Positions 7,278 to 32,641 of a stretch of DNA of 46,117 nt are shown piece after piece. Position numbers and translations under genes: made by a program. The DNA lies in IMG/VR virus record IMGVR_UViG_3300045988_041336, one strand, 5' to 3'. The notes beneath the pieces are model-generated. The model was not told where the DNA came from and did not search any database. It saw only the letters and a list, made by a program, of their open reading frames with translations. The DNA is from a virus. The stretch's first letter is position 1. Each line of letters begins with the position of its first letter.

Positions 7278-8384
7278 TTACTTGTTTGTATCTTCTTGCA
7301 ACAGATTCACGGCGTCGATCATGCCGCTCATATCCGGATGGACATATCGCTGCGTCGTCGTTATCTTTGTGTGCCGCATGATCTCCTTAATCGTAAATGG
7401 GTCAATGTTTTTGGAGGCGAGGGCAGTTGCGGTCGTATGACGGCAGGAATACGGTGGGAGTTTCTGCACATCGGCCAACTCTAAGCACTCATAGTATCGT
7501 TTGTAAAAGTTGTCTTTGTTTATGCAGCATACGTTCCCAATGCGTGAGTCGCTTTCAGCGCACAAGGATTGAAGCAGCGGAGCGAGAAAATCTGGGAAAA
7601 CCATCGGCGTTTCCTTGCGCTTTTTCGTTTTTATGCCGCCTTTGACAATCTCGTTTTTATTAAAGTCGATCATGTCCTTTTTGAGCCGGAGCAGCTCGCC
7701 GGGCATCATCCCAGTATAAATCATTACCAGAACAAATCCGACGAAATGATCCTTTTCGTAAGCCGCCCATAGCTTCTTAATATCAGCATCGGAAAACGGC
7801 TCCGGGGACTTTTCTTCGAGGACGGGAAGCTTTATGTATTTCGCAAGATTCACCGTGGTTTGCTTTTCAGCAATTGCAAGATTGTAGCAATGGGACACAA
7901 CGGTTTTCATGTCCTTCCGCGTGTAATAGGTGCTGGCGTTGTGGTCGATCACATCTTGTATCTGCATAATTGTAAGACTATCAATTTCGCAGTCCGCGAT
8001 TTCCGCCAACCGCTGAAATGCCTTGTCCGAAGCGCCCTGCCGGTCGTTGGAAAGAGACAGGTAATCCCCTTTTTGGTATGTCTTGTAGTATTCACGGAGG
8101 GTGCAGCTTCGCTTGGCCTCCTTGGGCGGGTTTGCAGCGTATTGCAGAGCCGCGCGCTTGGATGCAAAGCCGCCTTTCGTTTTCATCTTTTGCTGAAGTT
8201 TCCCGTTTTCGTCGATGTATGTTTTTTCAGTCCAACGGGCCGTCCACGTTTTCCCGCGCTGGTATGCGTTTCCCTGCCCGTTTCCTCGCGTGCGGCTGCG
8301 CTGCACGATTTGCTTTTTCCCGCACCAGCAACAAAAAAGAGACCCATCGGGGATCTCCATTTTGCATTTTACACATCGCTGCAT
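7278..8384 (-). CDS. int: Tyrosine integrase with N-terminal zinc ribbon
   Basis: RBS AAGGAGG. The N-terminus is MQRCVKCKMEIPDGSLFCCWCGKK. The C-terminal catalytic region is ...CRHTTATALAS...IMRHTKITTTQRYVHPD (R..HxxR..Y). Confidence 0.9.
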   Translation of the reverse strand: MQRCVKCKMEIPDGSLFCCWCGKKQIVQRSRTRGNGQGNAYQRGKTWTARWTEKTYIDENGKLQQKMKTKGGFASKRAALQYAANPPKEAKRSCTLREYYKTYQKGDYLSLSNDRQGASDKAFQRLAEIADCEIDSLTIMQIQDVIDHNASTYYTRKDMKTVVSHCYNLAIAEKQTTVNLAKYIKLPVLEEKSPEPFSDADIKKLWAAYEKDHFVGFVLVMIYTGMMPGELLRLKKDMIDFNKNEIVKGGIKTKKRKETPMVFPDFLAPLLQSLCAESDSRIGNVCCINKDNFYKRYYECLELADVQKLPPYSCRHTTATALASKNIDPFTIKEIMRHTKITTTQRYVHPDMSGMIDAVNLLQEDTNK

Positions 8385-8436
8385 GGGTTACCTCCTTAAA
8401 AGTACCGCTCCGGCAGTGCGCCGGGGCGGCTATTTT

Positions 8437-8826
8437 TTATGCACGGAACCAACCGAGGGTGGGGCTCAGGATATCCACCACCATAGCAAAAGCGCAAAGC
8501 GCGACGATGCCGAGCAGGACAAGGGTGGTGATGCGGTGCATTTTCAGGGATTTTCGAAGCTGATCGCGCTGGGTGCGGAGGCTTTTGTTTTCAAGGCGAA
8601 GCAGCTCGGAGACGGATTCCGGAGCGGGCGGCGAGATACCGAAGTACGCGTTCATATCGATGCTGAGGGCATGGCAGATCGGGCCGACGGTGTAGACAGA
8701 GGCGCTTTTTGATTCGCCGCGCAGGTACTGAGAAACCGTATTCAGGGCGAGACCGGCACGGTCGGCGATGATCTGATTTGTGAGATGCGAAGCCTCCTTT
8801 GCTTCGCGGCAGAGCTGCCACAACAT
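8437..8826 (-). CDS. Membrane-anchored XRE-family HTH protein
   Basis: HTH LTNQIIADRAGLALNTVSQYLRG, a coiled segment, and C-terminal TM ITTLVLLGIVALCAFAMVVDIL. Start chosen at MLWQL; the ORF is open up to 8877. Confidence 0.6.
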   Translation of the reverse strand: MLWQLCREAKEASHLTNQIIADRAGLALNTVSQYLRGESKSASVYTVGPICHALSIDMNAYFGISPPAPESVSELLRLENKSLRTQRDQLRKSLKMHRITTLVLLGIVALCAFAMVVDILSPTLGWFRA

Positions 8827-8946
8827 TTTTTCCAAGAAAATCACTCCAAAAAACATGATTGGGGCGGAGAAAACCATGGAAATGGCTGTACATAACCATT
8901 GGTAAAAGCGTATGGTTTAACTACAGGCGGCTCCCAATCGCTTGCA

Positions 8947-8987
8947 GAAACCAAAGCCCGTGCCAGCATCGGCACGCTGGCACGGGC
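8947..8987 (-). terminator. Terminator of the Mrr-like gene
   Basis: 12-bp stem gcccgtgccagc/gctggcacgggc, followed on the minus strand by TTTGGTTTC. Confidence 0.65.
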
Positions 8988-9175
8988 AAAACCATCAACC
9001 ATGATATCAGCTTCTTTCCAAAGACTTTCCCGTTTCAGTATACCACATATGCAAGCCAATAAATGGGACTTATTCTGCAAATGACTGTAGAATTTTAATA
9101 TCCAGATTTTGTGCATTCTGTCGTGTTGACTTGTTGGAACATAAGTTCTAATATATCACCATGCACTTCAACTAT

Positions 9176-10096
9176 TCAAGAAGCACTTTCAATGAGCTGT
9201 AGTAGCACACTTCTACCCCATAGAAGGATATCTGTTGATGCTGCCGCTTCTTTGGCGCTTTGTGTGAAGCCTCGATTTGTTAGCACGATTCCAACGTGGC
9301 ACTTATAAATCTGCTTCCCGGTGAAGACCTCTTGGACGGCTGCGTTTCCAACATCACCGTCGTATCGCTTGCATTGGAAAGCATATTTGACTCCATCGCG
9401 CTCTGCAATGACATCTGCGCCTTGATCTCCGCTTCTTTTCGTAACAACGACATTTTGGTATCCGTTACCGCGCAAAACATCGGCGCAAAAACATTCAAAA
9501 TCAGTTCCGGACATTCTGTCGAAGTCCTGCGGAACGTTTCCGGATGCGGTTTGTTCAGGCACAGTGTTTTCGAATATAGGAACGCCGCAATCGCGCCGCA
9601 ATTCGGACATCATTCTACGCCCAAACGCGATAGTCCCCTCATTGAACACATGCCTATATTGATCGAAATCGTCTCTGAATTTCTCACAGTCGGAACGTGT
9701 TTTCTCAGGCCAATTTACATAAAGCCCACGTGCGTCTCTGACTATCCTGTTTTTATTCTGTTCCATGCAATTCCGAAGGTGCCATTGGAACTCTTCCAAG
9801 TATTTCTGCAAGTCGAAATACGGCAATGCTGACTTGTATGGCACTGCGTTCCTTATCTTTGCGAGATGTCTAGCCGAAGATAACGCCTCATAGTACAGAA
9901 CGATAAATTGGCCGAAGTCAGTTGTTTTGTTCATCTCAGCGATATTGCGGTTTATGCTATCAGCCAATCTCGAAGCCAAAGAAATGCAGTCTTTCTTAAA
10001 AAATGGAACTTTGAAATTTCGGTAGGCTATGTCGCTTTCTTCTTGTCTGTTGCGCGACAAATCAGCCGGTGGCGAGTATCTATACGAATCAGACAT
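9176..10096 (-). CDS. Mrr-type restriction endonuclease domain protein with unknown ~190-aa N-terminal domain
   Basis: RBS AAGGTGA. The C-terminus (FECFCADVLRGNGYQNVVVTKRSGDQGADVIAERDGVKYAFQCKRY...VGIVLTNRGFTQSA) shows the D..(D/E)xK pattern of Mrr_cat. The gene looks AT-richer than its flanks by eye (not computed). Confidence 0.7.
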   Translation of the reverse strand: MSDSYRYSPPADLSRNRQEESDIAYRNFKVPFFKKDCISLASRLADSINRNIAEMNKTTDFGQFIVLYYEALSSARHLAKIRNAVPYKSALPYFDLQKYLEEFQWHLRNCMEQNKNRIVRDARGLYVNWPEKTRSDCEKFRDDFDQYRHVFNEGTIAFGRRMMSELRRDCGVPIFENTVPEQTASGNVPQDFDRMSGTDFECFCADVLRGNGYQNVVVTKRSGDQGADVIAERDGVKYAFQCKRYDGDVGNAAVQEVFTGKQIYKCHVGIVLTNRGFTQSAKEAAASTDILLWGRSVLLQLIESAS

Positions 10097-24875: not shown

Positions 24876-25118
24876 GTGCAGAAAGGAATGGAAGCCATTA
24901 CATGGACGCAGAAGAAGATACTACCGGTATTTGCGAAGTGCAATATGAGCAGCAGAAAGACCGCAGAAGAGATTTTTTTGAGTCCGGGCGACGTTGATTA
25001 CCATTTGCGCATGATCGAGATAAAAACCGGACTGAATCCGCGCGTTTTCGTTGACCTTGTAAAGCTACTGTTCCTCTGCGGCGAAGGGAATATGTTCGGG
25101 CTGGGGGAGTTGCTATGA
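24876..25118 (+). CDS. LuxR/GerE-type HTH protein
   Basis: GTG 8 nt after AAGGAGG. WTQKKILPVFAKCNMSSRKTAEEIFLSPGDVDYHLRMIEIKTGL. Confidence 0.5.
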   Translation: MQKGMEAITWTQKKILPVFAKCNMSSRKTAEEIFLSPGDVDYHLRMIEIKTGLNPRVFVDLVKLLFLCGEGNMFGLGELL

Positions 25119-25318
25119 CGGACAGGCAGGAAGAATTCTATCTGCTCTACATGAGCGGCGTCAGAACCGGCGAAATAGCCCGCAGATACGGCGTAAACAG
25201 GTCTACAGTCACGCGGATAATATCACGGGCAGAAAACCATCTGCGACGCGCAGAAAGGCTTAAACGGCGTGTTGACGCGATGCAGAAAGAGGCTGAAAAT
25301 GAAAATATTAGCCATTGA
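25115..25318 (+). CDS. Sigma-70 region-4/YlxM-like HTH protein (candidate late regulator)
   Basis: DRQEEFYLLYMSGVRTGEIARRYGVNRSTVTRIISRAENHL. Confidence 0.5.
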   Translation: MTDRQEEFYLLYMSGVRTGEIARRYGVNRSTVTRIISRAENHLRRAERLKRRVDAMQKEAENENISH

Positions 25319-25990: not shown

Positions 25991-26006
25991 ACTTTTGCGA
26001 TACCGC

Positions 26007-26049
26007 AGAAAAATAACCCCGCCCACATCGGGCGGGGTTATCTTATCTC
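26007..26049. terminator. Bidirectional terminator between convergent operons
   Basis: agaaaaa-taaccccgccc-acatc-gggcggggtta-tcttatctc. Confidence 0.75.
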
Positions 26050-26774
26050 GCAAAGACTCTTTGCAGAAAAGAGCGTTGCTTTTTGTAAAACGTAGTAACC
26101 GCGGCTATTTCGCGGTCTCCAGTATAAGGCACATCGTAGCGCCACATCCCGGCGGGTGTCTGATAGATGCACTGGCCGTATCTCGGGAGCTGCTCCAAGC
26201 CGGGCATATCTAGTATATTTCGGCTCTGCTGCCGGGTGGCGGTGTGCAGGCCGCAAATGGCGGTAAAGTTTACTTTAATAACGGTGGGAATAACGGTTGC
26301 AAGCGGGCATTGGGTAACCAGAATAACGTGGACCCTCGCGGCTCTGCCTATCTGGCAAAGCCGCTGAACGACCGGCAGCACCCGCTTTTTGTCCGTTAAA
26401 ACGAGGTCGGCGAATTCCTCGATGATAACATACACGTCCGCGCCGTTGTATGTGCGCATCCTGCGGCGCTGCATGTCCTTGTAGCGGGCGTTTACAATGC
26501 CCATCGCATAATCAAGCGCCGCTATGATGTCGCCGTGTTCCGTGGCGTGGCGGAGCGTGTGAGGCATTCCGGCATACTCGTTAAGCTCCGTTTTTTTCGG
26601 ATCGATAAGAATCATTTGCATCTGGTTTGGGTGGTGGCGCAAAATGGCGCACACAAGCCCATTAAGCAGAACGGATTTACCAGAGCCGGACGCGCCAGCA
26701 ATCAGAAGATGCGGCTGCTCCAACATGTCCGCGAACAGGGCGGGAACCTGCCCGCCCATGCTTGTAATTTTCAT
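26043..26774 (-). CDS. FtsK/SpoIIIE-type P-loop ATPase (motor domain only)
   Basis: RBS GGAGGG. Walker A LLIAGASGSGKS, LIDPKK, Walker B VYVIIEEFADL, then RAARVHVILVTQ. Confidence 0.75.
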   Translation of the reverse strand: MKITSMGGQVPALFADMLEQPHLLIAGASGSGKSVLLNGLVCAILRHHPNQMQMILIDPKKTELNEYAGMPHTLRHATEHGDIIAALDYAMGIVNARYKDMQRRRMRTYNGADVYVIIEEFADLVLTDKKRVLPVVQRLCQIGRAARVHVILVTQCPLATVIPTVIKVNFTAICGLHTATRQQSRNILDMPGLEQLPRYGQCIYQTPAGMWRYDVPYTGDREIAAVTTFYKKQRSFLQRVFAR

Positions 26775-27046
26775 GCCGTTTTCCCTCCGTCGAAGAAATA
26801 AGTTCCATTTTCCATGAAACGCCTGTTCCAATAGTCCGCGACTTCACGCGCTCGCTTTTTTGTCGGGAAGATGTTCGCAGAAACAAGCCCGCCGATGTGA
26901 TCGAGAACGCTCGCGAGGTTGTCGGACTCGGCGCAGCGGATAACGTCGGCATAATAGCCGGGGTCGCACTCCGGAGACGGGCGCGGCGTGAATACCCGCT
27001 CGTTGCGGTCTTGCCGTACCTGTACGGCGATGTAGAAATATGCCAT
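26771..27046 (-). CDS. Hypothetical protein (translationally coupled to the ATPase)
   Basis: ATGA overlap with the downstream gene. 91 aa. MAYFYIAVQV... Confidence 0.55.
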   Translation of the reverse strand: MAYFYIAVQVRQDRNERVFTPRPSPECDPGYYADVIRCAESDNLASVLDHIGGLVSANIFPTKKRAREVADYWNRRFMENGTYFFDGGKTA

Positions 27047-27052
27047 TGCTCA

Positions 27053-27790
27053 TCAATCCTCCATTTCTTTATGGCTATTGAAATATTCACGCTGTGCGGC
27101 CATGTATGCGGCTTTTTGCGTGTCGGTAAAGCCGCAGGCGGCGAAAAGCTCGCTTGCGCTGGTGTAGTCTTTTACGCCGTTGCAATTTGCGAAACAGCTG
27201 CAAACATCAAAGTCAGCTTGCCAGTTGATGCCATATTCGTGATTATACATTTCGTGCAGAAACGCGCTTTTCCAGTAGTCGAATGATTCGGCGTTCTTGC
27301 GTTCGGCCTCGTCCAATGTCCGCATCAGTTCCGCGCCATGCTTCACGAAATCGGCATCCCGATAATATGCCATGAACACGGGACTAAAAATCATTCCGGA
27401 GGTATCCGGCGCGGGTCCGATATGAAACATTGAAACATGCGGGCGACGCATTGCGTAAAGGTTGCGCAGAAAGTATTCTTTTACACTCTTGTCATCGTAT
27501 CCGCTGACGGTGGAAAGTTCCGATTCTGTGAAAAGTATTCCGGTTAACTTCCGGCGGTAAATCTCGCGCAGTTCGTCGCGGCTCTTGCCTCTGTGGTGCA
27601 GTTCGTAATCATTCGCGTGGTAGATGTGCTGCCCTTCTGCGCAGACGCAAGCGGAAAACCCGAAAGCGCCGCCGAAGTCAACGAAATAAACCGTGTACCC
27701 TTTGATCGTCTCGACTTCATCGGCCATGTCGGCCAGATTGGCCGCGCTCATGTTTTCGATGTCCTTGATTGTGTAATTGTATGCGTTCAT
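27053..27790 (-). CDS. Hypothetical 245-aa protein
   Basis: RBS CAGGAGG. ...TVYFVDFGGAFGFSACVCAEGQHIYHANDYELHH... No function recognised. Confidence 0.6.
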   Translation of the reverse strand: MNAYNYTIKDIENMSAANLADMADEVETIKGYTVYFVDFGGAFGFSACVCAEGQHIYHANDYELHHRGKSRDELREIYRRKLTGILFTESELSTVSGYDDKSVKEYFLRNLYAMRRPHVSMFHIGPAPDTSGMIFSPVFMAYYRDADFVKHGAELMRTLDEAERKNAESFDYWKSAFLHEMYNHEYGINWQADFDVCSCFANCNGVKDYTSASELFAACGFTDTQKAAYMAAQREYFNSHKEMED

Positions 27791-27860
27791 GTGTAGTTCC
27801 TCCTGATTTAAGATTATGTGGTGCGGCTGATCGGCTCAACCGCCCAGAAGCCCCGAATCA

Positions 27861-28199
27861 TCAAAAATCGATGTCGGCGAGTATATCATCACCAGAGGCG
27901 ATGTCGCGCCAGAATTCGCCCGCGGTATAAACGCCGCAGAATCCGCTATCACAATTGCAATTTGCGTAGAGTTCATCGAAGCCAACTTCGGAGAGCTGCT
28001 CAAGCCATGCCGAAGCGATTTCCTCGCGCTCTGCAACTCCGGCTTCGTACCAGCGCGAATTCTTAAGCGGGTAGTTTTCTTCGTGCCCGTCCTGCCACAT
28101 GTAGCAGGCTCTGCCATCCTCACGCATATGCTCCGGATCGGTTGCGGTGGCAACTGCCATAAAGCCGCCGTTAGTCTCCACGAAATACAGTTTTGCCAT
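27861..28199 (-). CDS. Strongly acidic 112-aa protein
   Basis: RBS GGAGGG. By my count ~23 D/E against ~7 K/R (net charge about -16). Confidence 0.6.
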   Translation of the reverse strand: MAKLYFVETNGGFMAVATATDPEHMREDGRACYMWQDGHEENYPLKNSRWYEAGVAEREEIASAWLEQLSEVGFDELYANCNCDSGFCGVYTAGEFWRDIASGDDILADIDF

Positions 28200-28263
28200 T
28201 TTAATATCCCTCCAAAACAATTTTAGGTTTGCCCCGACGCCAGAAGGCGTTTCGTCTTAATTT

Positions 28264-28458
28264 TCAAAGGCTCGTCATCTGCTTCAAGATCGTCTCGGCG
28301 CGCTGAAAATAGCTCCAAGAAAATTTTTCGCCCTTCGTCGCTTCGATTTCTTTCGCCTTTTTTACGGTTTCACGGTATTCTTTGCTGAGTGCCTCGTATT
28401 TTGCGGTGAGTTCTTCTTTCTTCGCAAGCTTTTCTTTCTTCGTCATAAACAGTTTCAT
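28264..28458 (-). CDS. Lys/Glu-rich helical 64-aa protein
   Basis: RBS AAAGGAAA. First gene downstream of the leftward consensus promoter. Confidence 0.5.
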   Translation of the reverse strand: MKLFMTKKEKLAKKEELTAKYEALSKEYRETVKKAKEIEATKGEKFSWSYFQRAETILKQMTSL

Positions 28459-28509
28459 TTCGTTTCCTTTCTGCCGCTTGGCGGCTCCGTATCTCTTGTT
28501 TACATGCTT

Positions 28510-28538
28510 ATTATATAGGTTGCAACGCATATAGTCAA
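28510..28538 (-). promoter_or_regulatory. Leftward near-consensus sigma-70 promoter
   Basis: On the minus strand: TTGACT (28538..28533), 17-nt spacer, TATAAT (28515..28510). Confidence 0.7.
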
Positions 28539-28599
28539 TTGGCAACATGCACAAAGTTACAACGTATATATTATGCAATTTTATACTTTACAACGTAAT
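28519..28599. repeat. Three operator-like repeats T[TA][GA]CAACG[CT]A[TA]
   Basis: GTTGCAACGCATATA (28519-33), GTTACAACGTATATA (28556-70) and TTTACAACGTAAT (28587-99). Copy 1 lies in the leftward promoter spacer; copy 3 overlaps the rightward -35. Confidence 0.6.
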
Positions 28600-28615
28600 C
28601 CACACATGATATACT
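28587..28615 (+). promoter_or_regulatory. Rightward promoter
   Basis: TTTACA (28587-92), 17-nt spacer ending in TG-a, TATACT (28610-15). Confidence 0.65.
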
Positions 28616-28634
28616 TTCGGCAAGAGGTGATGAA

Positions 28635-28832
28635 ATGGCAGTATCAGAGGCCCAGCGCCGAGCAAATCAAAAATGGGATGCGGAAAACATGGCTTACCAA
28701 ACGGTAAAAGTAAAAAAAGCTTTGCTTGAGGACTTCAAAGCCGCCTGCGCGGCCCGAGGCGACAAGGTAAATACCGTTCTTCGGCAGGCAATGGAAGAAT
28801 ACACGTGCAAGGAGGGAAGCAAAGATGCTTGA
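28635..28832 (+). CDS. Ribbon-helix-helix-like small DNA-binding protein
   Basis: RBS AAGAGGTGA. YQTVKVKKALLEDFKAACAARGDKVNTVLRQAMEEY fits a beta-strand + two-helix RHH pattern. Confidence 0.5.
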   Translation: MAVSEAQRRANQKWDAENMAYQTVKVKKALLEDFKAACAARGDKVNTVLRQAMEEYTCKEGSKDA

Positions 28833-29103
28833 CGATCTGGAATTGCAGCAAGTGAAGGATATCGCCGACGAGGCCCGACGCGGGGCCGTACATGATATCC
28901 AAGTAATTATTGAAAATACAGTTTCAAAACAACTCGAACTTCTGGCAGAGGGCCAGCGGACAATTATCGAAACGCTTACACCAAAGAGCGAAACCGAGGA
29001 ATTGAAAGAGGAAGTAAACTTCCTGAAATCCGTTATCCGTATGCACGCAAAGCAGCTCGCCGAGCAGCAACAGGAAATCGAGCAACTTAAAAAAGCACAG
29101 TAA
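28825..29103 (+). CDS. Coiled-coil protein
   Basis: RBS AAGGAGGG. 92 aa, Glu/Gln/Leu-rich heptads. Confidence 0.55.
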   Translation: MLDDLELQQVKDIADEARRGAVHDIQVIIENTVSKQLELLAEGQRTIIETLTPKSETEELKEEVNFLKSVIRMHAKQLAEQQQEIEQLKKAQ

Positions 29104-29107
29104 TTCA

Positions 29108-29140
29108 AGCACCGACTACCGATTAACGGCGGTCGGTGCT
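29108..29140 (+). terminator. Hairpin after the RHH operon (weak U-run)
   Basis: agcaccgac...gtcggtgct with inner accg/cggc pairs, then attgctat. Confidence 0.45.
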
Positions 29141-29446
29141 ATTGCTATCCTGTGTAGTATCTATCTTCGCAATGCGGGAGCGTCAGCGGCTCGCATGTCT
29201 GAGAGCCCCCGCGCACCGGATGCACCACAGCGGCGCACAATGTACGCGCGTTGCTTACTCCTTTCAACCCGAGTATGCACCACTCTTGTAATATACGCGC
29301 CCCTGCGCAAAACTCCCATATCTGCCACGATTCCGCCGACGATCACGCAACGGAGCTGCGCACGGCGCAAAGTGATGCACGCAAACGGGCACCACTTCCC
29401 CGAGACACGCCCCAAAGCCTTGATTTTCCCGTGCAAAAAATGTTAT

Positions 29447-29520
29447 GCTTTTGCTAGCAGCGCAGCCGCAAGCTAGCTTGCGCACGCGCAGCCGACGCAA
29501 AAGCGCAATTTTGATTTTTA
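29447..29520 (+). promoter_or_regulatory. Long hairpin with a perfect 14-bp palindrome and T-rich tail, just upstream of terS
   Basis: Outer stem gcttttgc (29447-54)/gcaaaagc (29497-504). Inner palindrome GCAAGCTAGCTTGC (29468-81). Followed by gcaattttgattttta. A possible promoter is TTGATT (29420-25)-18-TGtTATGCT. Confidence 0.4.
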
Positions 29521-29532
29521 CGGGGTGAGTTC

Positions 29533-30111
29533 ATGCCAAAGGCAACCGCAGCCAAGGAGCAATCAACAGAGATAGCAAAGCCTAAACGCAAGCGCAACAG
29601 GCCCGATCTTGCCAACTTCGGACAAGAGTACATAGAGCCGGGAGACAATGCCCGATACCTTCGGAATGCTATGGTTGCGTGGGACTTGCCCCCGATCGAT
29701 ATTAGCGATCCGAAGCAGGTTGAACACCGCATTCAAGAGTATTTCGAATTCTGCATCAATCAGGACGCAAAGCCAAGCGTTCCGGGTATGGGGCTATGGC
29801 TAGGCGTGGACGCTACTACTATTCGCAAATGGAGAGCAGGGGACTACAGGAGCACAACGCACCTACCGGTGATAAAAAAAGCTATGTTTGTACTTGAATC
29901 CCTCTGGAATGATTGGATGCAGTCCGGCAAGATCAATCCGGCGTCCGGTATTTTCATTGGCAAGAATATGTTCGGGTACAAAGATACACAAGATGTTGTG
30001 GTCACTCCGAATAATCCGCTAGATAATGGGGTTTCCCCTGCTGAGATCGCGGACAAGTATAGGGACGCACTGCCGGAAGTGTCCCCCGTGCCGGATATGC
30101 CGGACAAGTAA
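29533..30111 (+). CDS. terS: Terminase small subunit
   Basis: Basic N-terminus; HTH-like PSVPGMGLWLGVDATTIRKWR; ...GIFIGKNMFGYKD typical of Terminase_2-type small subunits. Upstream of terL. Confidence 0.75.
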   Translation: MPKATAAKEQSTEIAKPKRKRNRPDLANFGQEYIEPGDNARYLRNAMVAWDLPPIDISDPKQVEHRIQEYFEFCINQDAKPSVPGMGLWLGVDATTIRKWRAGDYRSTTHLPVIKKAMFVLESLWNDWMQSGKINPASGIFIGKNMFGYKDTQDVVVTPNNPLDNGVSPAEIADKYRDALPEVSPVPDMPDK

Positions 30112-30427: not shown

Positions 30428-32071
30428 ATGTACGAAGAGACGTTAAGCAGGATCAGGCGATTCATCGAGTCGAGACCGGAGGATAGCGCGGCGTATGGGG
30501 ACTACTTCGACATTGTCAGGGCAATGTGGGAGGCGGATAGGGAGCACGCGTTCAAACATGATTTGTGGTTGAGAAGCGCAACTGCTTTGAAGGTAAAAGA
30601 AACGGAAGATGCGAATGCAGTTCTCAAATTTTTCGAAATAAACAAAAAGACGTATCTCTTGGCCGCGAAAGATGACTTCGATTCTTACTGCGTATATCTG
30701 GAATGGAACAGGGACAAGACGAAACGGTTTTATGTTCCGAGAAGGGCGACGCTCCGGCCACTTGTACAGGACTTGCAGGAACTGAACGATGGGGCGTTAG
30801 ATTTTCTCGGGGTGTCTTTGCCCCCGCGAGTTGGGAAGTCTACGCTCTGCATTTTTTTCATGACGTGGATCATGGGGAAGAGACCGGACGTTGCAAATGT
30901 CATGTCAGGACACTCGGATAAGCTTACGGACGGGTTCTACAGAGAGACAATGAATATTCTGACGGACACAGAAACGTACTCTTGGGCTGACGTGTTCCCG
31001 GATGTTAAGGTCGTGGATAATTCCGCAAAGAACGAGACGATTGATCTGGAGCGGAAGAAGCGCTTCCCAACGTTCACGGCGCGGTCTGTCGGCGGAACAC
31101 TGACCGGCGCAGTCGAAGTCGGAACGGGCGGATGCTTGTATGTGGACGACCTGATAGAGGATCTGGAAGAGTCCTTGAATCCTGTACGGCTGCAAGCAAA
31201 ATACGATGCGTATTTGAATCAGCTCAAAGACAGAAAAAAAGACGGGGCTTTCGAACTGATGGTCGGTACACGGTGGAACGTTGCCGATCCGCTGGGAAGG
31301 ATTCAGGAGCAGTACGAAGGAAACCCACGATATCGATTCCGCGTGATTCCGGCCCTGAACGAAAAGGGAGAATCGAATTTCAACTACCAATACGGGCTGG
31401 GCTTCTCCACGGAGTACTACAAGGACATGAAAGCCAGCATCGACGATGCGACTTGGTGTGCGAAGTATCAGGGTAAGCCTTATGTTCGTGAGGGCCTTTT
31501 GTTCCCTGCGGAGTCTCTTCGGTATTACAACGGCGTTTTGCCGGAAGACGATTTCTATAAAGTCGCCGTGTGCGACGTGGCGTGGGGCGGCGGTGACAGC
31601 CTTGCAATGCCCTTTGCGTATGTAGCGACGGACGGCAGCGTTTATATTCACGACGTTATTTTCAGCAAGGGCGCGAAGGACGTTACGCAGCCTCTTGTAG
31701 CCAACCGGACGAAGGAACACAAGCCACACAAGGAGCGCTTCGAGGCGAACAACGGCGGCGGAGAATATGCTTCGACTGTTGATAGACTGCTTCGAGGAAT
31801 TGGGGTGACAACGAATATCACTTCTCAGAGAGCGCCGAACAATCAAAGCAAGCTCGGGCGGATTATTCAGTACTCCCCGGAAATCAAGAAGTTCTATTTC
31901 ATCGACAAAGAACACAGAACACCGGAATACGACGAGTTTATGCGCGAAGTGTGCACCTTCTCACAGACAGGTAAGAACGTGCACGACGACGCGCCGGATA
32001 GTTTGGCAATGTTAGCCGACGAATTGTATCACGGCTCTGCGCAAATCGAGATCAAACGCCGAACGTTCTAA
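30428..32071 (+). CDS. terL: Terminase large subunit
   Basis: RBS GGAGGAG. 547 aa. P-loop-like GVSLPPRVGKST, Walker B-like CLYVDDLIED, and a nuclease-half acidic motif VAVCDVAWGGGDS. Confidence 0.9.
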   Translation: MYEETLSRIRRFIESRPEDSAAYGDYFDIVRAMWEADREHAFKHDLWLRSATALKVKETEDANAVLKFFEINKKTYLLAAKDDFDSYCVYLEWNRDKTKRFYVPRRATLRPLVQDLQELNDGALDFLGVSLPPRVGKSTLCIFFMTWIMGKRPDVANVMSGHSDKLTDGFYRETMNILTDTETYSWADVFPDVKVVDNSAKNETIDLERKKRFPTFTARSVGGTLTGAVEVGTGGCLYVDDLIEDLEESLNPVRLQAKYDAYLNQLKDRKKDGAFELMVGTRWNVADPLGRIQEQYEGNPRYRFRVIPALNEKGESNFNYQYGLGFSTEYYKDMKASIDDATWCAKYQGKPYVREGLLFPAESLRYYNGVLPEDDFYKVAVCDVAWGGGDSLAMPFAYVATDGSVYIHDVIFSKGAKDVTQPLVANRTKEHKPHKERFEANNGGGEYASTVDRLLRGIGVTTNITSQRAPNNQSKLGRIIQYSPEIKKFYFIDKEHRTPEYDEFMREVCTFSQTGKNVHDDAPDSLAMLADELYHGSAQIEIKRRTF

Positions 32072-32250: not shown

Positions 32251-32326
32251 GGGACATTAGCTCAGTTGGTAGAGCAGCGGACTGTTAATCCGCCTGTCGG
32301 AGGTTCAAGCCCTTCATGTCCCGCCA
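32251..32326 (+). tRNA. tRNA-Asn: tRNA-Asn (anticodon GTT), CCA encoded
   Basis: Manual cloverleaf: GGGACAT/ATGTCCC acceptor, GCTC..GAGC D arm, GCGGA-CTGTTAA-TCCGC anticodon arm, GGAGG-TTCAAGC-CCTTC T arm, G-CCA. Confidence 0.9.
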
Positions 32327-32564: not shown

Positions 32565-32641
32565 GGGCCGTTATCTCAAATGGCTAGAGCGACCGGCTCA
32601 TAACCGGTAACATCTCGGTTCGAGTCCGAGACGGCCCACCA
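32565..32641 (+). tRNA. tRNA-Met: tRNA with CAT anticodon (Met, or Ile2 if lysidinylated), CCA encoded
   Basis: GGGCCGT/ACGGCCC acceptor, ACCGG-CTCATAA-CCGGT anticodon arm, CTCGG-TTCGAGT-CCGAG T arm, A-CCA. Confidence 0.85.

What the first reader, a model, noticed from the sequence alone, without database searches (positions are those of the whole stretch)
26043..29140. Reverse-oriented five-gene accessory operon (FtsK-type ATPase, four unknowns including a net -16 acidic protein) with consensus divergent promoters, a triple operator and an RHH gene
Seen: apart from the lysogeny region, every gene is rightward except a compact leftward block. It encodes a 64-aa K/E-rich protein, a 112-aa very acidic protein, a 245-aa unknown, a 91-aa unknown and a 243-aa protein. 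The last has Walker A GASGSGKS and Walker B VYVIIEEFADL of the FtsK/SpoIIIE type. The last two genes are coupled by an ATGA overlap. The block is driven by TTGACT-17-TATAAT. Facing it is TTTACA-17-TGaTATACT, which drives an RHH-like gene and a coiled-coil gene. Three copies of T[TA][GA]CAACG[CT]A overlap both promoters. The block is bounded by terminators at 26007-26049 and 29108-29140. It sits exactly at the early/packaging junction, between the RuvC-like resolvase and terS, where a late activator would normally abut terS. Inference: this is a self-regulated, probably lysogen-expressed cassette (defence, anti-defence or DNA-translocation function). I cannot assign it to any described system. 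A motor-only FtsK domain with no integrase, relaxase or partition partner is unusual in a phage.
Basis: partly seen in the sequence, partly recalled or inferred. Interest (0 to 1): 0.7.

Follow-up and report, generated by a model that had tools for sequence, protein, structure and literature searches.

The report
FtsK-anchored swappable gene cassette in phage
The leftward block is real, but it is not a fixed five-gene machine: a short FtsK-type ATPase gene is kept constant while the genes ahead of it are swapped between related gut phages, which makes the slot a likely store of unknown counter-defence genes.

Summary
This covers the five leftward genes, the Walker A/B motifs, the ATGA overlap, the two back-to-back near-consensus sigma-70 promoters, three TWRCAACGYA sites, an omega-like RHH gene and both flanking hairpins.

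The five genes are not one system. In 84 further loci (L031-L114, phages carrying a 47-97% identical ~240-aa FtsK-like protein), that gene is typically the last gene of a short reverse-oriented operon beside terS/terL. The same layout recurs: divergent strong promoters, a small RHH or HTH regulator, and a terminator. The genes upstream are interchangeable: 59 families in 71 loci. Relatives with 90-97% identical FtsK lack g245, g91 or g112.

Only g243 matches a known family, and it is only the RecA-like beta domain of FtsK.

One relative carries ArdA in the cargo slot and another an LPD25 protein. Elsewhere, g245 homologues sit next to ArdC, LPD25, SNF2/PARP and methylase genes.

Best reading (about 0.5): a host-RNAP-driven, self-repressed accessory hotspot, most likely for counter-defence or establishment genes, anchored by an orphan FtsK motor whose function is unknown. 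The prophage's recognisable defence genes (ToxIN, an Mrr-like nuclease) lie in the lysogeny module instead. This is a new variant of a known kind; expression timing and phenotype are untested.

The parts
26003..26045 (-). Intrinsic terminator of the leftward operon. It is a bidirectional hairpin between the convergent early genes and the FtsK-like gene, with its U-tract on the minus strand.
   Evidence: dG -32.5 kcal/mol, z -5.4, stem ATAACCCCGCCC/GGGCGGGGTTAT followed by UUUUUCU. The strict scan did not list it.
26043..26774 (-). g243: stand-alone FtsK/SpoIIIE beta (RecA-like) domain ATPase. It is the constant last gene of the cassette.
   Evidence: PF01580, phrog_1358, FtsK NF007615; a family profile aligns only to residues 161-420 of the E. 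coli FtsK motor construct 2ius (E 7e-52), with no alpha or gamma domain. Walker A, Walker B, QRLCQIGRAA and TQCP motifs are invariant; present in 21 of 21 loci of this phage lineage.
26771..27046 (-). g91: small protein of unknown function, translationally coupled (ATGA) to g243. Lineage-restricted and optional.
   Evidence: overlap; only 14 clusters among 5.8 billion proteins; always directly upstream of FtsK when present (14 of 14); absent in L035, L036, L038 and L069, where its last ~24-32 nt survive as the g243 ribosome-binding region. AF2 pLDDT 63, no fold match.
27053..27790 (-). g245: acidic (-14) protein with a confidently predicted fold that has no structural match. Mobile cargo gene.
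   Evidence: 458 homologues, no Pfam; pLDDT 89, no PDB match (best E 1.4); invariant VDFGG, ANDYELHH and NHEYGINWQxDxD motifs; homologues elsewhere lack FtsK or g91 neighbours and sit next to ArdC, LPD25, SNF2/PARP and methylase genes.
27861..28199 (-). g112: very acidic (net -16) ORFan-like cargo protein.
   Evidence: charge; no family hit; 12 representatives in 1.84 billion at E<=1e-3; present, absent or repositioned among close relatives.
28264..28458 (-). g64: K/E-rich 64-aa first gene of the leftward operon. Optional cargo.
   Evidence: ATG with AAGGAAAC ribosome-binding site; absent in L038, L039, L145 and L146.
28510..28538 (-). P_left: near-consensus sigma-70 promoter TTGACT-17-TATAAT driving the cassette.
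   Evidence: 11 of 12. Conserved in relatives. The same class of promoter occurs in 34 of 52 related loci.
28520..28597 (.). Three operator-like sites TWRCAACGYA at 28520-28529, 28557-28566 and 28588-28597. The first lies inside a 22-bp palindrome in the P_left spacer; the third lies over the -35 of P_right.
   Evidence: Partly conserved, and varying together with RHH variants.
28587..28615 (+). P_right: TTTACA-17-TGaTATACT promoter for the regulator operon.
   Evidence: 10 of 12 plus extended TG. The -35/operator stretch TTTACAACGT is invariant in 10 relatives.
28635..28832 (+). RHH65: omega-like ribbon-helix-helix protein, the presumed repressor of both promoters.
   Evidence: omega repressor, E 0.012, full RHH core. 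(weak hit to Arc-like phrog). Replaced by HTH regulators in other lineages.
28825..29103 (+). cc92: coiled-coil protein co-transcribed with the RHH gene. Function unknown.
   Evidence: phrog_33872, 1.1e-10, unknown function. Absent in relatives that carry a 67-aa RHH variant.
29108..29140 (+). Stable hairpin ending the regulator operon. It has no U-tract.
   Evidence: dG -29.1, z -6.1. (inverted repeat I3).

Best explanation
This is an accessory-gene hotspot organised as a small, self-regulated pair of divergent operons next to the packaging genes.

How it most likely works:
1. Host RNA polymerase starts at two back-to-back, near-consensus sigma-70 promoters.
2. The leftward transcript carries interchangeable cargo genes (here g64, g112, g245 and g91). 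It always ends with one constant gene, a ~240-aa protein that is only the RecA-like beta domain of FtsK, followed by an intrinsic terminator.
3. The rightward transcript makes an omega-like RHH protein.
4. By inference, the RHH protein binds the three TWRCAACGYA sites: one in the P_left spacer, one between the promoters, and one over the -35 of P_right. This would shut both promoters after an initial burst, as Aca proteins do for anti-defence operons.

Shown: the architecture, the constancy of the FtsK-like gene, the swapping of cargo between near-identical flanks, and the intact ATPase motifs.

Inferred: the cargo genes are independent counter-defence or establishment factors used early in infection, and the FtsK-like protein is an active DNA motor. 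That motor lacks the alpha, gamma and membrane domains of FtsK, and most family members carry a basic/aromatic C-terminal tail. Its precise role (handling of the incoming genome, removal of DNA-bound host factors, or interference with host FtsK/SpoIIIE) remains open.
For: Architecture:
- The FtsK-like gene is the last gene of a 1-5-gene reverse cassette with a divergent 63-85-aa regulator in about 70 of 90 loci.
- TerL lies upstream on the opposite strand in 46 of 52 loci. A terS-like gene lies convergently downstream in 54 of 68 loci, at a median of 404 bp.
- Promoters of at least 11/12 point toward the cassette in 34 of 52 loci, against 13 of 247 control gaps. L032 has a 12/12 plus TG promoter and a terminator.

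Cargo is swappable:
- There are 59 cargo families in 71 loci.
- The window and L035 share 94% identical flanks. Their homology breaks at 26809 and 28197, where g112, g245 and g91 are replaced by an unrelated 217-aa gene.
- L036 has a precise loss of g245 and g91.
- 21 of 21 loci of this lineage keep the FtsK-like gene while the cargo varies.

Counter-defence flavour:
- ArdA (PF07275, 1.8e-36; phrog_2059) is in the cargo slot of L091.
- A homologue of an LPD25 protein is in the cargo slot of L090.
- g245 homologues sit directly next to ArdC (L014), LPD25 proteins (L011, L012), SNF2 plus PARP (L017), DUF4942 (L019) and a C5 methylase (L020).
- Many cargo proteins are strongly acidic, with net charges of -12 to -32.
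- No cargo protein hits PADLOC.

Early rather than lysogenic expression:
- In L131 the FtsK-like gene and five small upstream genes head the early operon, ahead of HTH, ERF, SSB and RusA genes.
- This prophage's recognisable defence genes lie in the lysogeny module: ToxN plus a 37-nt repeat array, and an Mrr-like nuclease.

Regulator: omega-like RHH. An RHH-type Aca that represses two anti-defence operons has a published precedent (PMC13551039).
Against: - No expression data exist. The moron-like layout (own promoter, own terminator, opposite orientation) is classically associated with prophage-expressed genes.
- None of the four cargo proteins of this window matches a known anti-defence family. 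ArdA and LPD25 occur only in relatives.
- FtsK-like ATPase domains also occur in defence proteins: SspH at 9e-24 and mad8 at 9e-19.
- Hotspots can mix defence and counter-defence genes. In the closest architectural analogue, the Listeria TERi locus, the alternating cargo genes are defence genes.
- Genes directly upstream of the FtsK-like gene are position-specific families (C1 in 16 of 16 loci, C3/g91 in 14 of 14). They could therefore be FtsK partners rather than independent cargo.
- RHH binding to the repeats is inferred only.
Confidence: 0.5

Rival explanations
1. The block is a prophage-expressed defence or superinfection-exclusion locus. The FtsK-like ATPase would be the conserved motor of a defence system, and the variable upstream genes would be alternative sensors or effectors, or independent defence genes. 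All would be expressed from the lysogen at a level set by the RHH protein.
For: The layout is moron-like: own consensus promoter, own terminator and reverse orientation. The ATPase matches FtsK-like domains of SspH and mad8 in PADLOC. The Listeria TERi locus is a reverse-strand locus with a conserved promoter and alternating defence genes. Gene families directly upstream of the FtsK-like gene are position-specific.
Against: No partner genes of Ssp or MADS are present, and no cargo protein hits PADLOC. ArdA and LPD25 occupy the same slot, and g245 keeps company with ArdC, LPD25 and PARP genes elsewhere. The FtsK-like gene works with 59 unrelated cargo families, and in L038 and L114 with a single cargo gene. 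In L131 the gene heads the early lytic operon. This prophage keeps ToxIN and an Mrr-like nuclease in the lysogeny module.
Confidence: 0.2
2. The FtsK-like ATPase is a core phage DNA-handling function: genome entry, concatemer or dimer processing, or help for terS/pac recognition. The upstream genes would be unrelated morons that accumulate in a permissive slot. On this reading the cassette has no single biological theme.
For: The gene is fixed in the lineage (21 of 21). It is tightly and repeatedly linked to terS and terL, even sitting between them in the L032-type lineage. The catalytic motifs are invariant. The RecA-like domain is closest to true FtsK (E 7e-52).
Against: The gene is transcribed opposite to both the early and the late operons, from a host-type promoter with its own repressor. 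That is odd for a housekeeping gene. Sister lineages with similar terS and terL lack it (L153-L171), as does Clostridium phage Maintenon. It lacks the alpha and gamma domains used by FtsK for ring assembly and DNA recognition.
Confidence: 0.2
3. The block is a fixed five-gene system in which g64, g112, g245, g91 and g243 act together. This is the implicit unit of the first reader.
For: The genes are co-oriented with short intergenic distances, share one promoter and one terminator, and g91 and g243 are coupled by ATGA. The g245-g91-g243 trio is identical in 10 metagenome contigs.
Against: Relatives with 90-97% identical g243 lack g245 and g91 (L035, L036, L038, L069) or g112 (L007, L009, L010). 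Others combine the genes differently. g245 occurs without FtsK or g91 in 20 genomic loci.
Confidence: 0.03
4. The block is a plasmid-type partition, conjugation or replication module: an omega-like RHH protein plus an ATPase, or a TraB/TcpA-type transfer ATPase.
For: The RHH protein resembles the omega repressor, which is the centromere-binding protein of inc18 plasmids. There are weak hits to TraB, VirB4 and coupling proteins.
Against: The ATPase is FtsK-type, not ParA-type. Its scores are far below every NCBIfam cut-off for TraB, TraD or VirB4. There is no relaxase, Rep or T4SS gene, and no membrane anchor. The element is a tailed temperate phage with integrase, terS, terL and portal genes.
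Confidence: 0.02

Closest known systems
Aca-controlled anti-defence (acr-aca) operons, including the RHH regulator Aca14 (PMC13551039)
   Same: Both have a very strong host-type promoter, small fast-changing genes of unknown function, a small HTH or RHH repressor with repeats inside the promoter, control of two adjacent operons, and one conserved gene usable as an anchor for guilt-by-association.
   Different: Here the regulator is transcribed divergently rather than as the last gene. The conserved anchor is an FtsK-type ATPase, not the regulator. No known Acr is present. The RHH protein has not been shown to be related to Aca14. Repression is untested.
Phage accessory-gene or defence hotspots: P2/P4 hotspots (PMC9122126) and the Listeria TERi locus (bioRxiv 10.1101/2025.02.27.640495)
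   Same: Both occupy a fixed genomic position flanked by conserved sequence, with alternating unrelated cargo genes. TERi also has reverse-strand orientation and a conserved promoter.
   Different: The cargo of those hotspots is anti-phage defence expressed from the prophage. Here the only recognisable cargo in relatives is counter-defence (ArdA, LPD25), and a constant ATPase gene is co-transcribed.
Anti-defence islands in the leading region of conjugative plasmids (PMC11541004) and the polyvalent-protein toolkit (PMC5512222)
   Same: The gene content is of the same type: ArdA, ArdC, LPD domains, methylases, PARP-like domains, SNF2 and acidic small proteins. g245 homologues live in such neighbourhoods.
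   Different: This is a tailed phage, not a conjugative element. Whether the cassette enters the cell first is unknown. The proteins are separate small genes rather than one polyvalent polypeptide.
FtsK/SpoIIIE DNA translocase motor (PDB 2ius, 2iuu)
   Same: The RecA-like beta domain carries Walker A, Walker B and the conserved GRAA/TQxP motifs. It is the best sequence match in the PDB (E 7e-52).
   Different: There are no membrane segments, no linker, no alpha domain and no gamma (KOPS-reading winged-helix) domain. The protein is about 240 aa instead of more than 750. Most members have a basic/aromatic C-terminal tail.
Longer FtsK/SpoIIIE-like proteins of Bacillus, Geobacillus and Mycobacterium phages (phrog_1358)
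   Same: They share the ATPase family and are also phage-encoded with unknown function.
   Different: Those examined are about 420-437 aa and sit within co-directional gene arrays. In Geobacillus phage PT9.1 the gene is followed by a replication/relaxation protein. Identity is 35% or less.
Omega repressor of inc18 plasmids (RHH; PDB 1irq, 2bnw)
   Same: The ribbon-helix-helix core is similar, and both have multiple short repeats in promoter regions.
   Different: Similarity is weak (E 0.012). The repeats here are 10 bp and spaced 31-37 bp apart, not contiguous heptads. There is no ParA partner.

Membership tests
FtsK/SpoIIIE family (PF01580) | P-loop RecA-like beta domain with Walker A, Walker B and the conserved GRAAGIH/TQRP-type motifs | tested here: met
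   PF01580 at 1.2e-32, above its cut-off. A family profile matches FtsK 2ius at E 7e-52. G27, G30-S34, E120, D123, R138, R144 and T154-P157 are invariant in 22 sequences.
Canonical FtsK/SpoIIIE DNA translocase | N-terminal membrane domain, alpha domain and C-terminal gamma winged-helix domain | tested here: not met
   The 243 aa align only to residues 161-420 of the 2ius motor construct. Nothing corresponds to the alpha or gamma domain. The score of 113 bits is far below the 1566-bit cut-off of equivalog NF007615.
Conjugative coupling or transfer ATPases (TraB, TcpA, TraD/VirD4, VirB4) | Score above the family cut-off, a membrane anchor, and a neighbouring relaxase or T4SS | tested here: not met
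   All hits are weaker than E 4.9e-05 (22 bits or less), against cut-offs of 300-800 bits. The neighbours are phage early genes and terS/terL.
Known defence systems with FtsK-like ATPases (SspFGH, MADS) in PADLOC | The complete gene set of the system | tested here: not met
   Only the ATPase domain matches the C-terminus of SspH and mad8. The other six proteins give no PADLOC hit.
Aca-regulated anti-defence operon | Strong promoter carrying repeats for a co-encoded small HTH or RHH repressor | tested here: inconclusive
   The promoters and three repeats are present, and the RHH call is supported at E 0.012. Binding and repression cannot be tested here. The regulator is divergent rather than in the same operon.
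Aca-regulated anti-defence operon | At least one gene with demonstrated or recognised anti-defence function in the operon | tested here: not met
   None of g64, g112, g245 or g91 hits any Pfam, PHROG, NCBIfam or PADLOC family. ArdA and LPD25 occupy the slot only in relatives L091 and L090. No anti-defence HMM set (dbAPIS, AntiDefenseFinder) was available.
Phage accessory region or hotspot | Variable gene content between conserved flanks at a fixed genomic position in related phages | tested here: met
   Flanks are 94% identical with breakpoints at 26809 and 28197. There are 59 cargo families in 71 loci. 21 of 21 lineage members keep the flanks and the FtsK-like gene.
Moron (Hendrix/Juhala sense) | Own promoter and terminator, inserted between genes of a conserved operon, often with deviating base composition | tested here: inconclusive
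   Promoter and terminator are present. GC is 0.516 against 0.528 for the window, so it does not deviate. Expression from the prophage was not testable.
Ribbon-helix-helix (omega/Arc/CopG-like) repressors | N-terminal beta-strand followed by two helices, with sequence similarity to known RHH proteins | tested here: inconclusive
   Profile against the PDB: omega repressor at E 0.012-0.022 over positions 19-59. Arc-like phrog_582 at E 0.023. No Pfam hit.
Plasmid partition module (ParA/ParB or delta/omega) | ParA/Soj-type Walker ATPase plus a centromere-binding protein and repeats | tested here: not met
   The ATPase is FtsK-type, with no ParA/CbiA hit.

The most novel reading that the evidence does not exclude
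The cassette could be the phage counterpart of a plasmid 'leading region'. It sits next to pac/terS and is transcribed away from the late genes. If packaging runs terS to terL and the last-packaged end enters first, as in SPP1 and P22 (an analogy from general knowledge, not tested here), the cassette would lie within a few kb of the entering DNA end in the first headfuls. It would also be read in the direction of entry.

Its consensus promoters would then fire before any other phage gene. The products would be a changing set of counter-defence proteins plus a soluble or membrane-tethered FtsK beta-domain motor. That motor might pull in or protect the rest of the genome, or strip DNA-bound defence proteins. 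This would be a role not described for any FtsK-family protein.

The FtsK-like gene would also be a ready-made anchor for mining thousands of new anti-defence genes from gut phages.
Probability: 0.15. Interest if true: 0.85.

Novelty: new variant of a known kind. Interest (0 to 1): 0.55.

Why it matters
Gut Clostridia phages are almost unexplored experimentally. This locus type is very common: about 6000 homologues of the ~240-aa ATPase match at E<=1e-10. It offers a simple rule (strong divergent promoters, a small repressor, cargo, then the FtsK-like gene) for finding fast-evolving accessory genes. In the sample examined, 59 cargo families came from 71 loci, and nearly all are without any annotation.

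One of them, g245, has a confidently predicted fold with no PDB match, conserved His/Asp/Glu/Cys motifs, and a habit of sitting next to ArdC, LPD25 and PARP genes. This makes it a good candidate for a new counter-defence enzyme.

The conserved motor is itself a puzzle: an FtsK beta domain with intact catalytic residues but without the parts that tether FtsK to the membrane, assemble it, or read DNA polarity.

If the cargo proves to be counter-defence, the FtsK-like gene becomes a marker comparable to aca genes for Acr discovery. If instead it is defence, this is a new prophage hotspot family.

Tried and rejected
- **Nucleotide search.** The block against 50,697 GenBank phages gave no match. 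tblastn of g245 against the same set gave no match.
- **Family scans.** Pfam, PHROGs, PADLOC and NCBIfam scans of all seven proteins gave no usable hit except for g243, plus a function-unknown PHROG (phrog_33872) for cc92 and weak sub-threshold hits for the RHH gene. DUF7659 (E 0.028) for g245 is too weak to use.
- **g245 fold.** Foldseek against the PDB found nothing. Against BFVD it found only g245's own homologue, auto-named 'queuosine biosynthesis protein'; I treat that as an unverified label.
- **g91 fold.** The AF2 model is low-confidence (pLDDT 63) and its Foldseek hits are meaningless.
- **Shared fold of FtsK-adjacent families.** Profile-profile comparison of the families found directly upstream of the FtsK-like gene showed no relationship (best probability 14%). 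A hidden common 'adaptor' fold is therefore not supported, although the alignments are shallow. The first all-against-all run timed out.
- **Fixed g245-g91-g243 unit.** This idea came from the first 10 contigs. It was rejected once more distant and sister loci were examined.
- **Annotated phages.** The Bacillus and Geobacillus FtsK-like genes examined are longer and sit in different contexts, so they say nothing about this cassette. Clostridium phage Maintenon, the closest cultured TerL relative (48%), has no FtsK-like gene.
- **Literature.** Full-text searches found no paper on short FtsK-like genes in such cassettes.
- **Other checks.** Rfam found only two tRNAs in the window and nothing in the block. 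My first length-greedy gene caller mis-called the RHH/cc92 region and was replaced by a codon-score caller.

Full report
**1. What is in the sequence**

The ORF table and the sequence show five tightly spaced leftward genes:
- g64, 28264-28458
- g112, 27861-28199
- g245, 27053-27790
- g91, 26771-27046
- g243, 26043-26774

Facing them are two rightward genes: RHH65 (28635-28832) and cc92 (28825-29103). terS (29533-30111, PF16677 GP3_package) and terL (30428-32071) follow.

Net charges are -16 for g112 and -14 for g245. g91 and g243 overlap by ATGA.

The promoter scan returns TTGACT-17-TATAAT on the minus strand (28538..28510, 11 of 12). It also returns TTTACA-17-TATACT with an extended TG on the plus strand (28587..28615).

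TWRCAACGYA occurs three times within 78 bp, at 28520, 28557 and 28588. The whole window has four matches against 0.62 expected. The first copy is the centre of a 22-bp palindrome inside the P_left spacer.

Both flanking hairpins are far more stable than shuffled sequence, with z of -5.4 and -6.1. Only the one after g243 carries a U-tract.

- The middle repeat lies between the promoters rather than on one.
- The right hairpin is not a canonical terminator.
- The 'RuvC-like' label of the upstream 168-aa protein has no profile or PDB support.

**2. What the proteins are**

Only g243 belongs to a known family: PF01580 at 1.2e-32, phrog_1358 at 4.8e-48, and FtsK NF007615 at 6.6e-33 but far below its cut-off.

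A 22-sequence family profile aligns to residues 161-420 of the E. coli FtsK motor construct 2ius (E 7e-52). This is the RecA-like beta domain. Nothing corresponds to the alpha or gamma domain, and the protein is too short for a membrane anchor. Walker A, Walker B and the GRAA and TQCP motifs are invariant, so an active ATPase is likely.

Most family members end in a basic/aromatic tail, for example RSFLQRVFAR or GFFRRLFR, with a net charge of +3 to +5 over the last 14 residues. I read this as a possible membrane- or nucleic-acid-binding tail. That is inference only.

The other proteins:
- **g245.** It has 458 homologues without any Pfam domain and strongly conserved VDFGG, ANDYELHH and NHEYGINWQxDxD motifs. 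Its AlphaFold model is confident (pLDDT 89, pTM 0.79) and has no structural match in the PDB (best E 1.4).
- **g91.** It has only 14 related clusters in 5.8 billion proteins, a poor model, and no fold match.
- **g112.** It has 12 relatives among 1.84 billion representatives.
- **RHH65.** As a four-sequence profile, it matches the omega repressor over the entire strand-helix-helix core at E 0.012.
- **cc92.** It matches only a PHROG of unknown function.

**3. The five genes are not one system**

Identical copies of g245 occur on many human-gut metagenome contigs, always followed by g91 and g243 and always beside terS. Already there, the first two gene slots vary.

Widening the net changed the picture. 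The ~240-aa FtsK-like protein has about 6000 homologues at E<=1e-10, and the best 120 are all 232-294 aa. I collected four metagenome loci, 80 IMG/VR loci through the ATPase and 50 through terS. I called genes with a codon-score model.

Findings:
- In about 70 of 90 loci, the FtsK-like gene is the last gene of a 1-5-gene cassette. The cassette runs opposite to its neighbours and faces a 63-85-aa regulator gene.
- TerL lies upstream on the other strand in 46 of 52 loci with enough sequence.
- A terS-like gene lies convergently downstream in 54 of 68 loci, at a median of 404 bp. In the window's own lineage, terS is on the other side.
- In the commonest lineage the cassette therefore splits terS from terL.

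The upstream genes are a shuffled deck. 196 proteins from 71 loci fall into 59 families, in many combinations.

Relatives with 90-97% identical g243 carry different cargo:
- g64 plus an unrelated 217-aa gene (L035, L069)
- only g112 plus g64 (L036)
- only the 217-aa gene (L038)

Alignment of the window with L035 shows 94% identity on both sides, with sharp breakpoints at 26809 and 28197. Where g91 is missing, its last ~24-32 nt persist as the ribosome-binding region of g243.

All 21 informative loci of this phage lineage keep g243 while the cargo varies. Conversely, g245 homologues in 20 bacterial genome loci have no FtsK-like or g91 neighbour.

**4. The regulatory layout is the conserved theme**

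The intergenic region of the window is conserved in relatives. This holds even for L031, where the RHH is 80% identical and the cargo differs. The TTTACAACGT stretch over the -35 of P_right is invariant, while the other two sites vary together with RHH variants.

In the distant L032 lineage the regulator is an HTH protein and all cargo is unrelated. The same design still appears:
- TTGACA-17-TGnTATAAT (12 of 12) toward the cargo
- an 11/12 promoter with TG toward the regulator
- a terminator just after the FtsK-like gene

Across 52 non-redundant divergent regions, 34 have a promoter of at least 11/12 aimed at the cassette. The comparison figures are 13 of 247 co-directional control gaps and 3 of 260 shuffles.

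Such near-perfect host-type promoters paired with a small repressor are what is described for anti-CRISPR and anti-defence operons. That literature includes an RHH regulator, Aca14, that represses two neighbouring operons (PMC13551039).

**5. What the cargo is likely to be**

Almost all cargo families lack any Pfam or PHROG function. The informative exceptions and associations are:
- L091 carries ArdA in the slot (PF07275, 1.8e-36; anti-restriction phrog_2059).
- L083 and L099 carry GP88-domain proteins.
- The 403-aa cargo protein of L090 is 51% identical to an LPD25-domain protein.
- The genomic neighbours of g245 homologues are typical of the counter-defence toolkit of mobile elements. They include ArdC directly upstream in L014, LPD25 proteins in L011 and L012, an SNF2 helicase and a PARP-like protein in L017, DUF4942 in L019, and a C5 methylase in L020 (compare PMC5512222).
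- Many cargo proteins are extremely acidic, for example net -32 in 129 aa. This fits DNA-mimic-type inhibitors but proves nothing.
- No cargo protein matches PADLOC.
- In another lineage (L131), the FtsK-like gene and five small upstream genes are simply the first genes of the early operon, ahead of HTH, ERF, SSB and RusA genes.
- The window's prophage keeps its recognisable defence genes in the lysogeny module next to a tyrosine integrase: a ToxN toxin with a 3.1-copy 37-nt ToxI-like array, and an Mrr-type nuclease.

Together these observations favour an early-expressed counter-defence or establishment role over a lysogen-expressed defence role. There are no expression data. The closest architectural analogue, the Listeria TERi locus, holds defence genes. 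I put the favoured reading at about 0.5.

**6. The FtsK-like gene**

It is constant, co-transcribed, catalytically intact and closest to genuine FtsK. It lacks the parts that tether FtsK to the membrane, assemble it, and steer it.

It is not needed by all relatives. A sister lineage with about 60% identical terS has a 2.5-kb terS-terL insert with RHH-like, HTH and serine-recombinase genes but no FtsK-like gene. Clostridium phage Maintenon also has none.

The longer FtsK-like proteins examined in annotated Bacillus and Geobacillus phages are in different contexts.

I cannot assign a mechanism. The candidates are:
- handling or import of the incoming genome
- removal of DNA-bound host proteins
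- interference with host FtsK/SpoIIIE
- a motor for a defence function

The proximity to terS/pac and the direction of transcription suggest the 'leading region' idea given as the novel case. That idea rests on analogy with SPP1 and P22 packaging and ejection and is untested.

**7. Comparison with what is known, and verdict**

The locus works like an Aca-type regulated accessory or anti-defence operon sitting in a phage hotspot. It is not a member of any described defence, partition, conjugation or replication system (see the membership table).

The new elements are:
- the FtsK beta-domain gene as a constant anchor
- the recurrent placement against or between the terminase genes
- the large, almost wholly unannotated cargo pool, including the new-fold protein g245

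I rate it a new variant of a known kind, with interest 0.55. Its interpretation is partly supported: the block is self-regulated and unassignable. It is not a five-gene unit, FtsK-only proteins are not rare in phages, and lysogenic expression is not supported.

Noticed in passing
window 4539-5232 (minus strand): There is a complete type III toxin-antitoxin / abortive-infection module. toxN (170 aa, PF13958, 2.9e-44) lies at 4539-5051. Directly upstream of it, at 5120-5232, is a 3.1-copy 37-nt tandem array (a ToxI-like RNA antitoxin).
   Followed up: partly
window 7278-10096 (minus strand): A tyrosine recombinase/integrase (368 aa, XerA/XerC-like in the PDB) is followed by a 306-aa protein with an Mrr_cat restriction-endonuclease domain (3.2e-27). 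This is a likely prophage-borne defence gene in the lysogeny module.
   Followed up: partly
window 32251-32323 and 32565-32638: Two tRNA genes sit between terL and the portal gene. Clostridium phage Maintenon also has tRNAs in its terS-terL gap (L115 6011-6159).
   Followed up: no
L154 6019-8557 (and L153-L171): In a sister lineage (terS about 60% identical), the terS-terL gap of about 2.5 kb holds a reverse-oriented RHH-like 83-aa gene, an 83-aa HTH gene and a 186-aa serine recombinase/invertase, but no FtsK-like gene. L033 also has a resolvase next to the cassette regulator. This raises the possibility of an invertible or recombinase-serviced hotspot.
   Followed up: partly
L131 1-2436: In another lineage (FtsK-like 56% identical), the ATPase and five small upstream genes are co-directional with the early operon and lie at its head, ahead of HTH, ERF, SSB, RusA and two methylases.
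   Followed up: partly
L014 7017-8780; L011 3863-5143; L017 503-6960: g245 homologues lie next to ArdC (ArdcN plus zincin), LPD25-domain proteins, an SNF2 helicase and a PARP-like protein. This marks the g245 family as part of the mobile-element counter-defence neighbourhood. The C-terminal motif AFLxEMxNHEYGINWQ also occurs alone in Collinsella, Olsenella and Bacteroidales loci (L021-L030).
   Followed up: partly
window 25115-25318: A 67-aa protein with a sigma-70 region-4-like HTH (Sigma70_r4_2, 1.7e-05) sits two genes upstream of the cassette. It is a candidate late-gene activator that is separated from terS by the inserted block.
   Followed up: no
window 29141-29532: A gap of about 390 bp between the regulator-operon hairpin and terS has no convincing ORF but several short G+C-rich direct and inverted repeats, for example an 18-nt palindrome at 29457-29492. 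It could be a pac or regulatory region.
   Followed up: no
L083 and L099 cargo slots: GP88-domain proteins (PF17338; 245 and 255 aa, cysteine-rich) occupy the cargo position in two loci. Their function is unknown.
   Followed up: no
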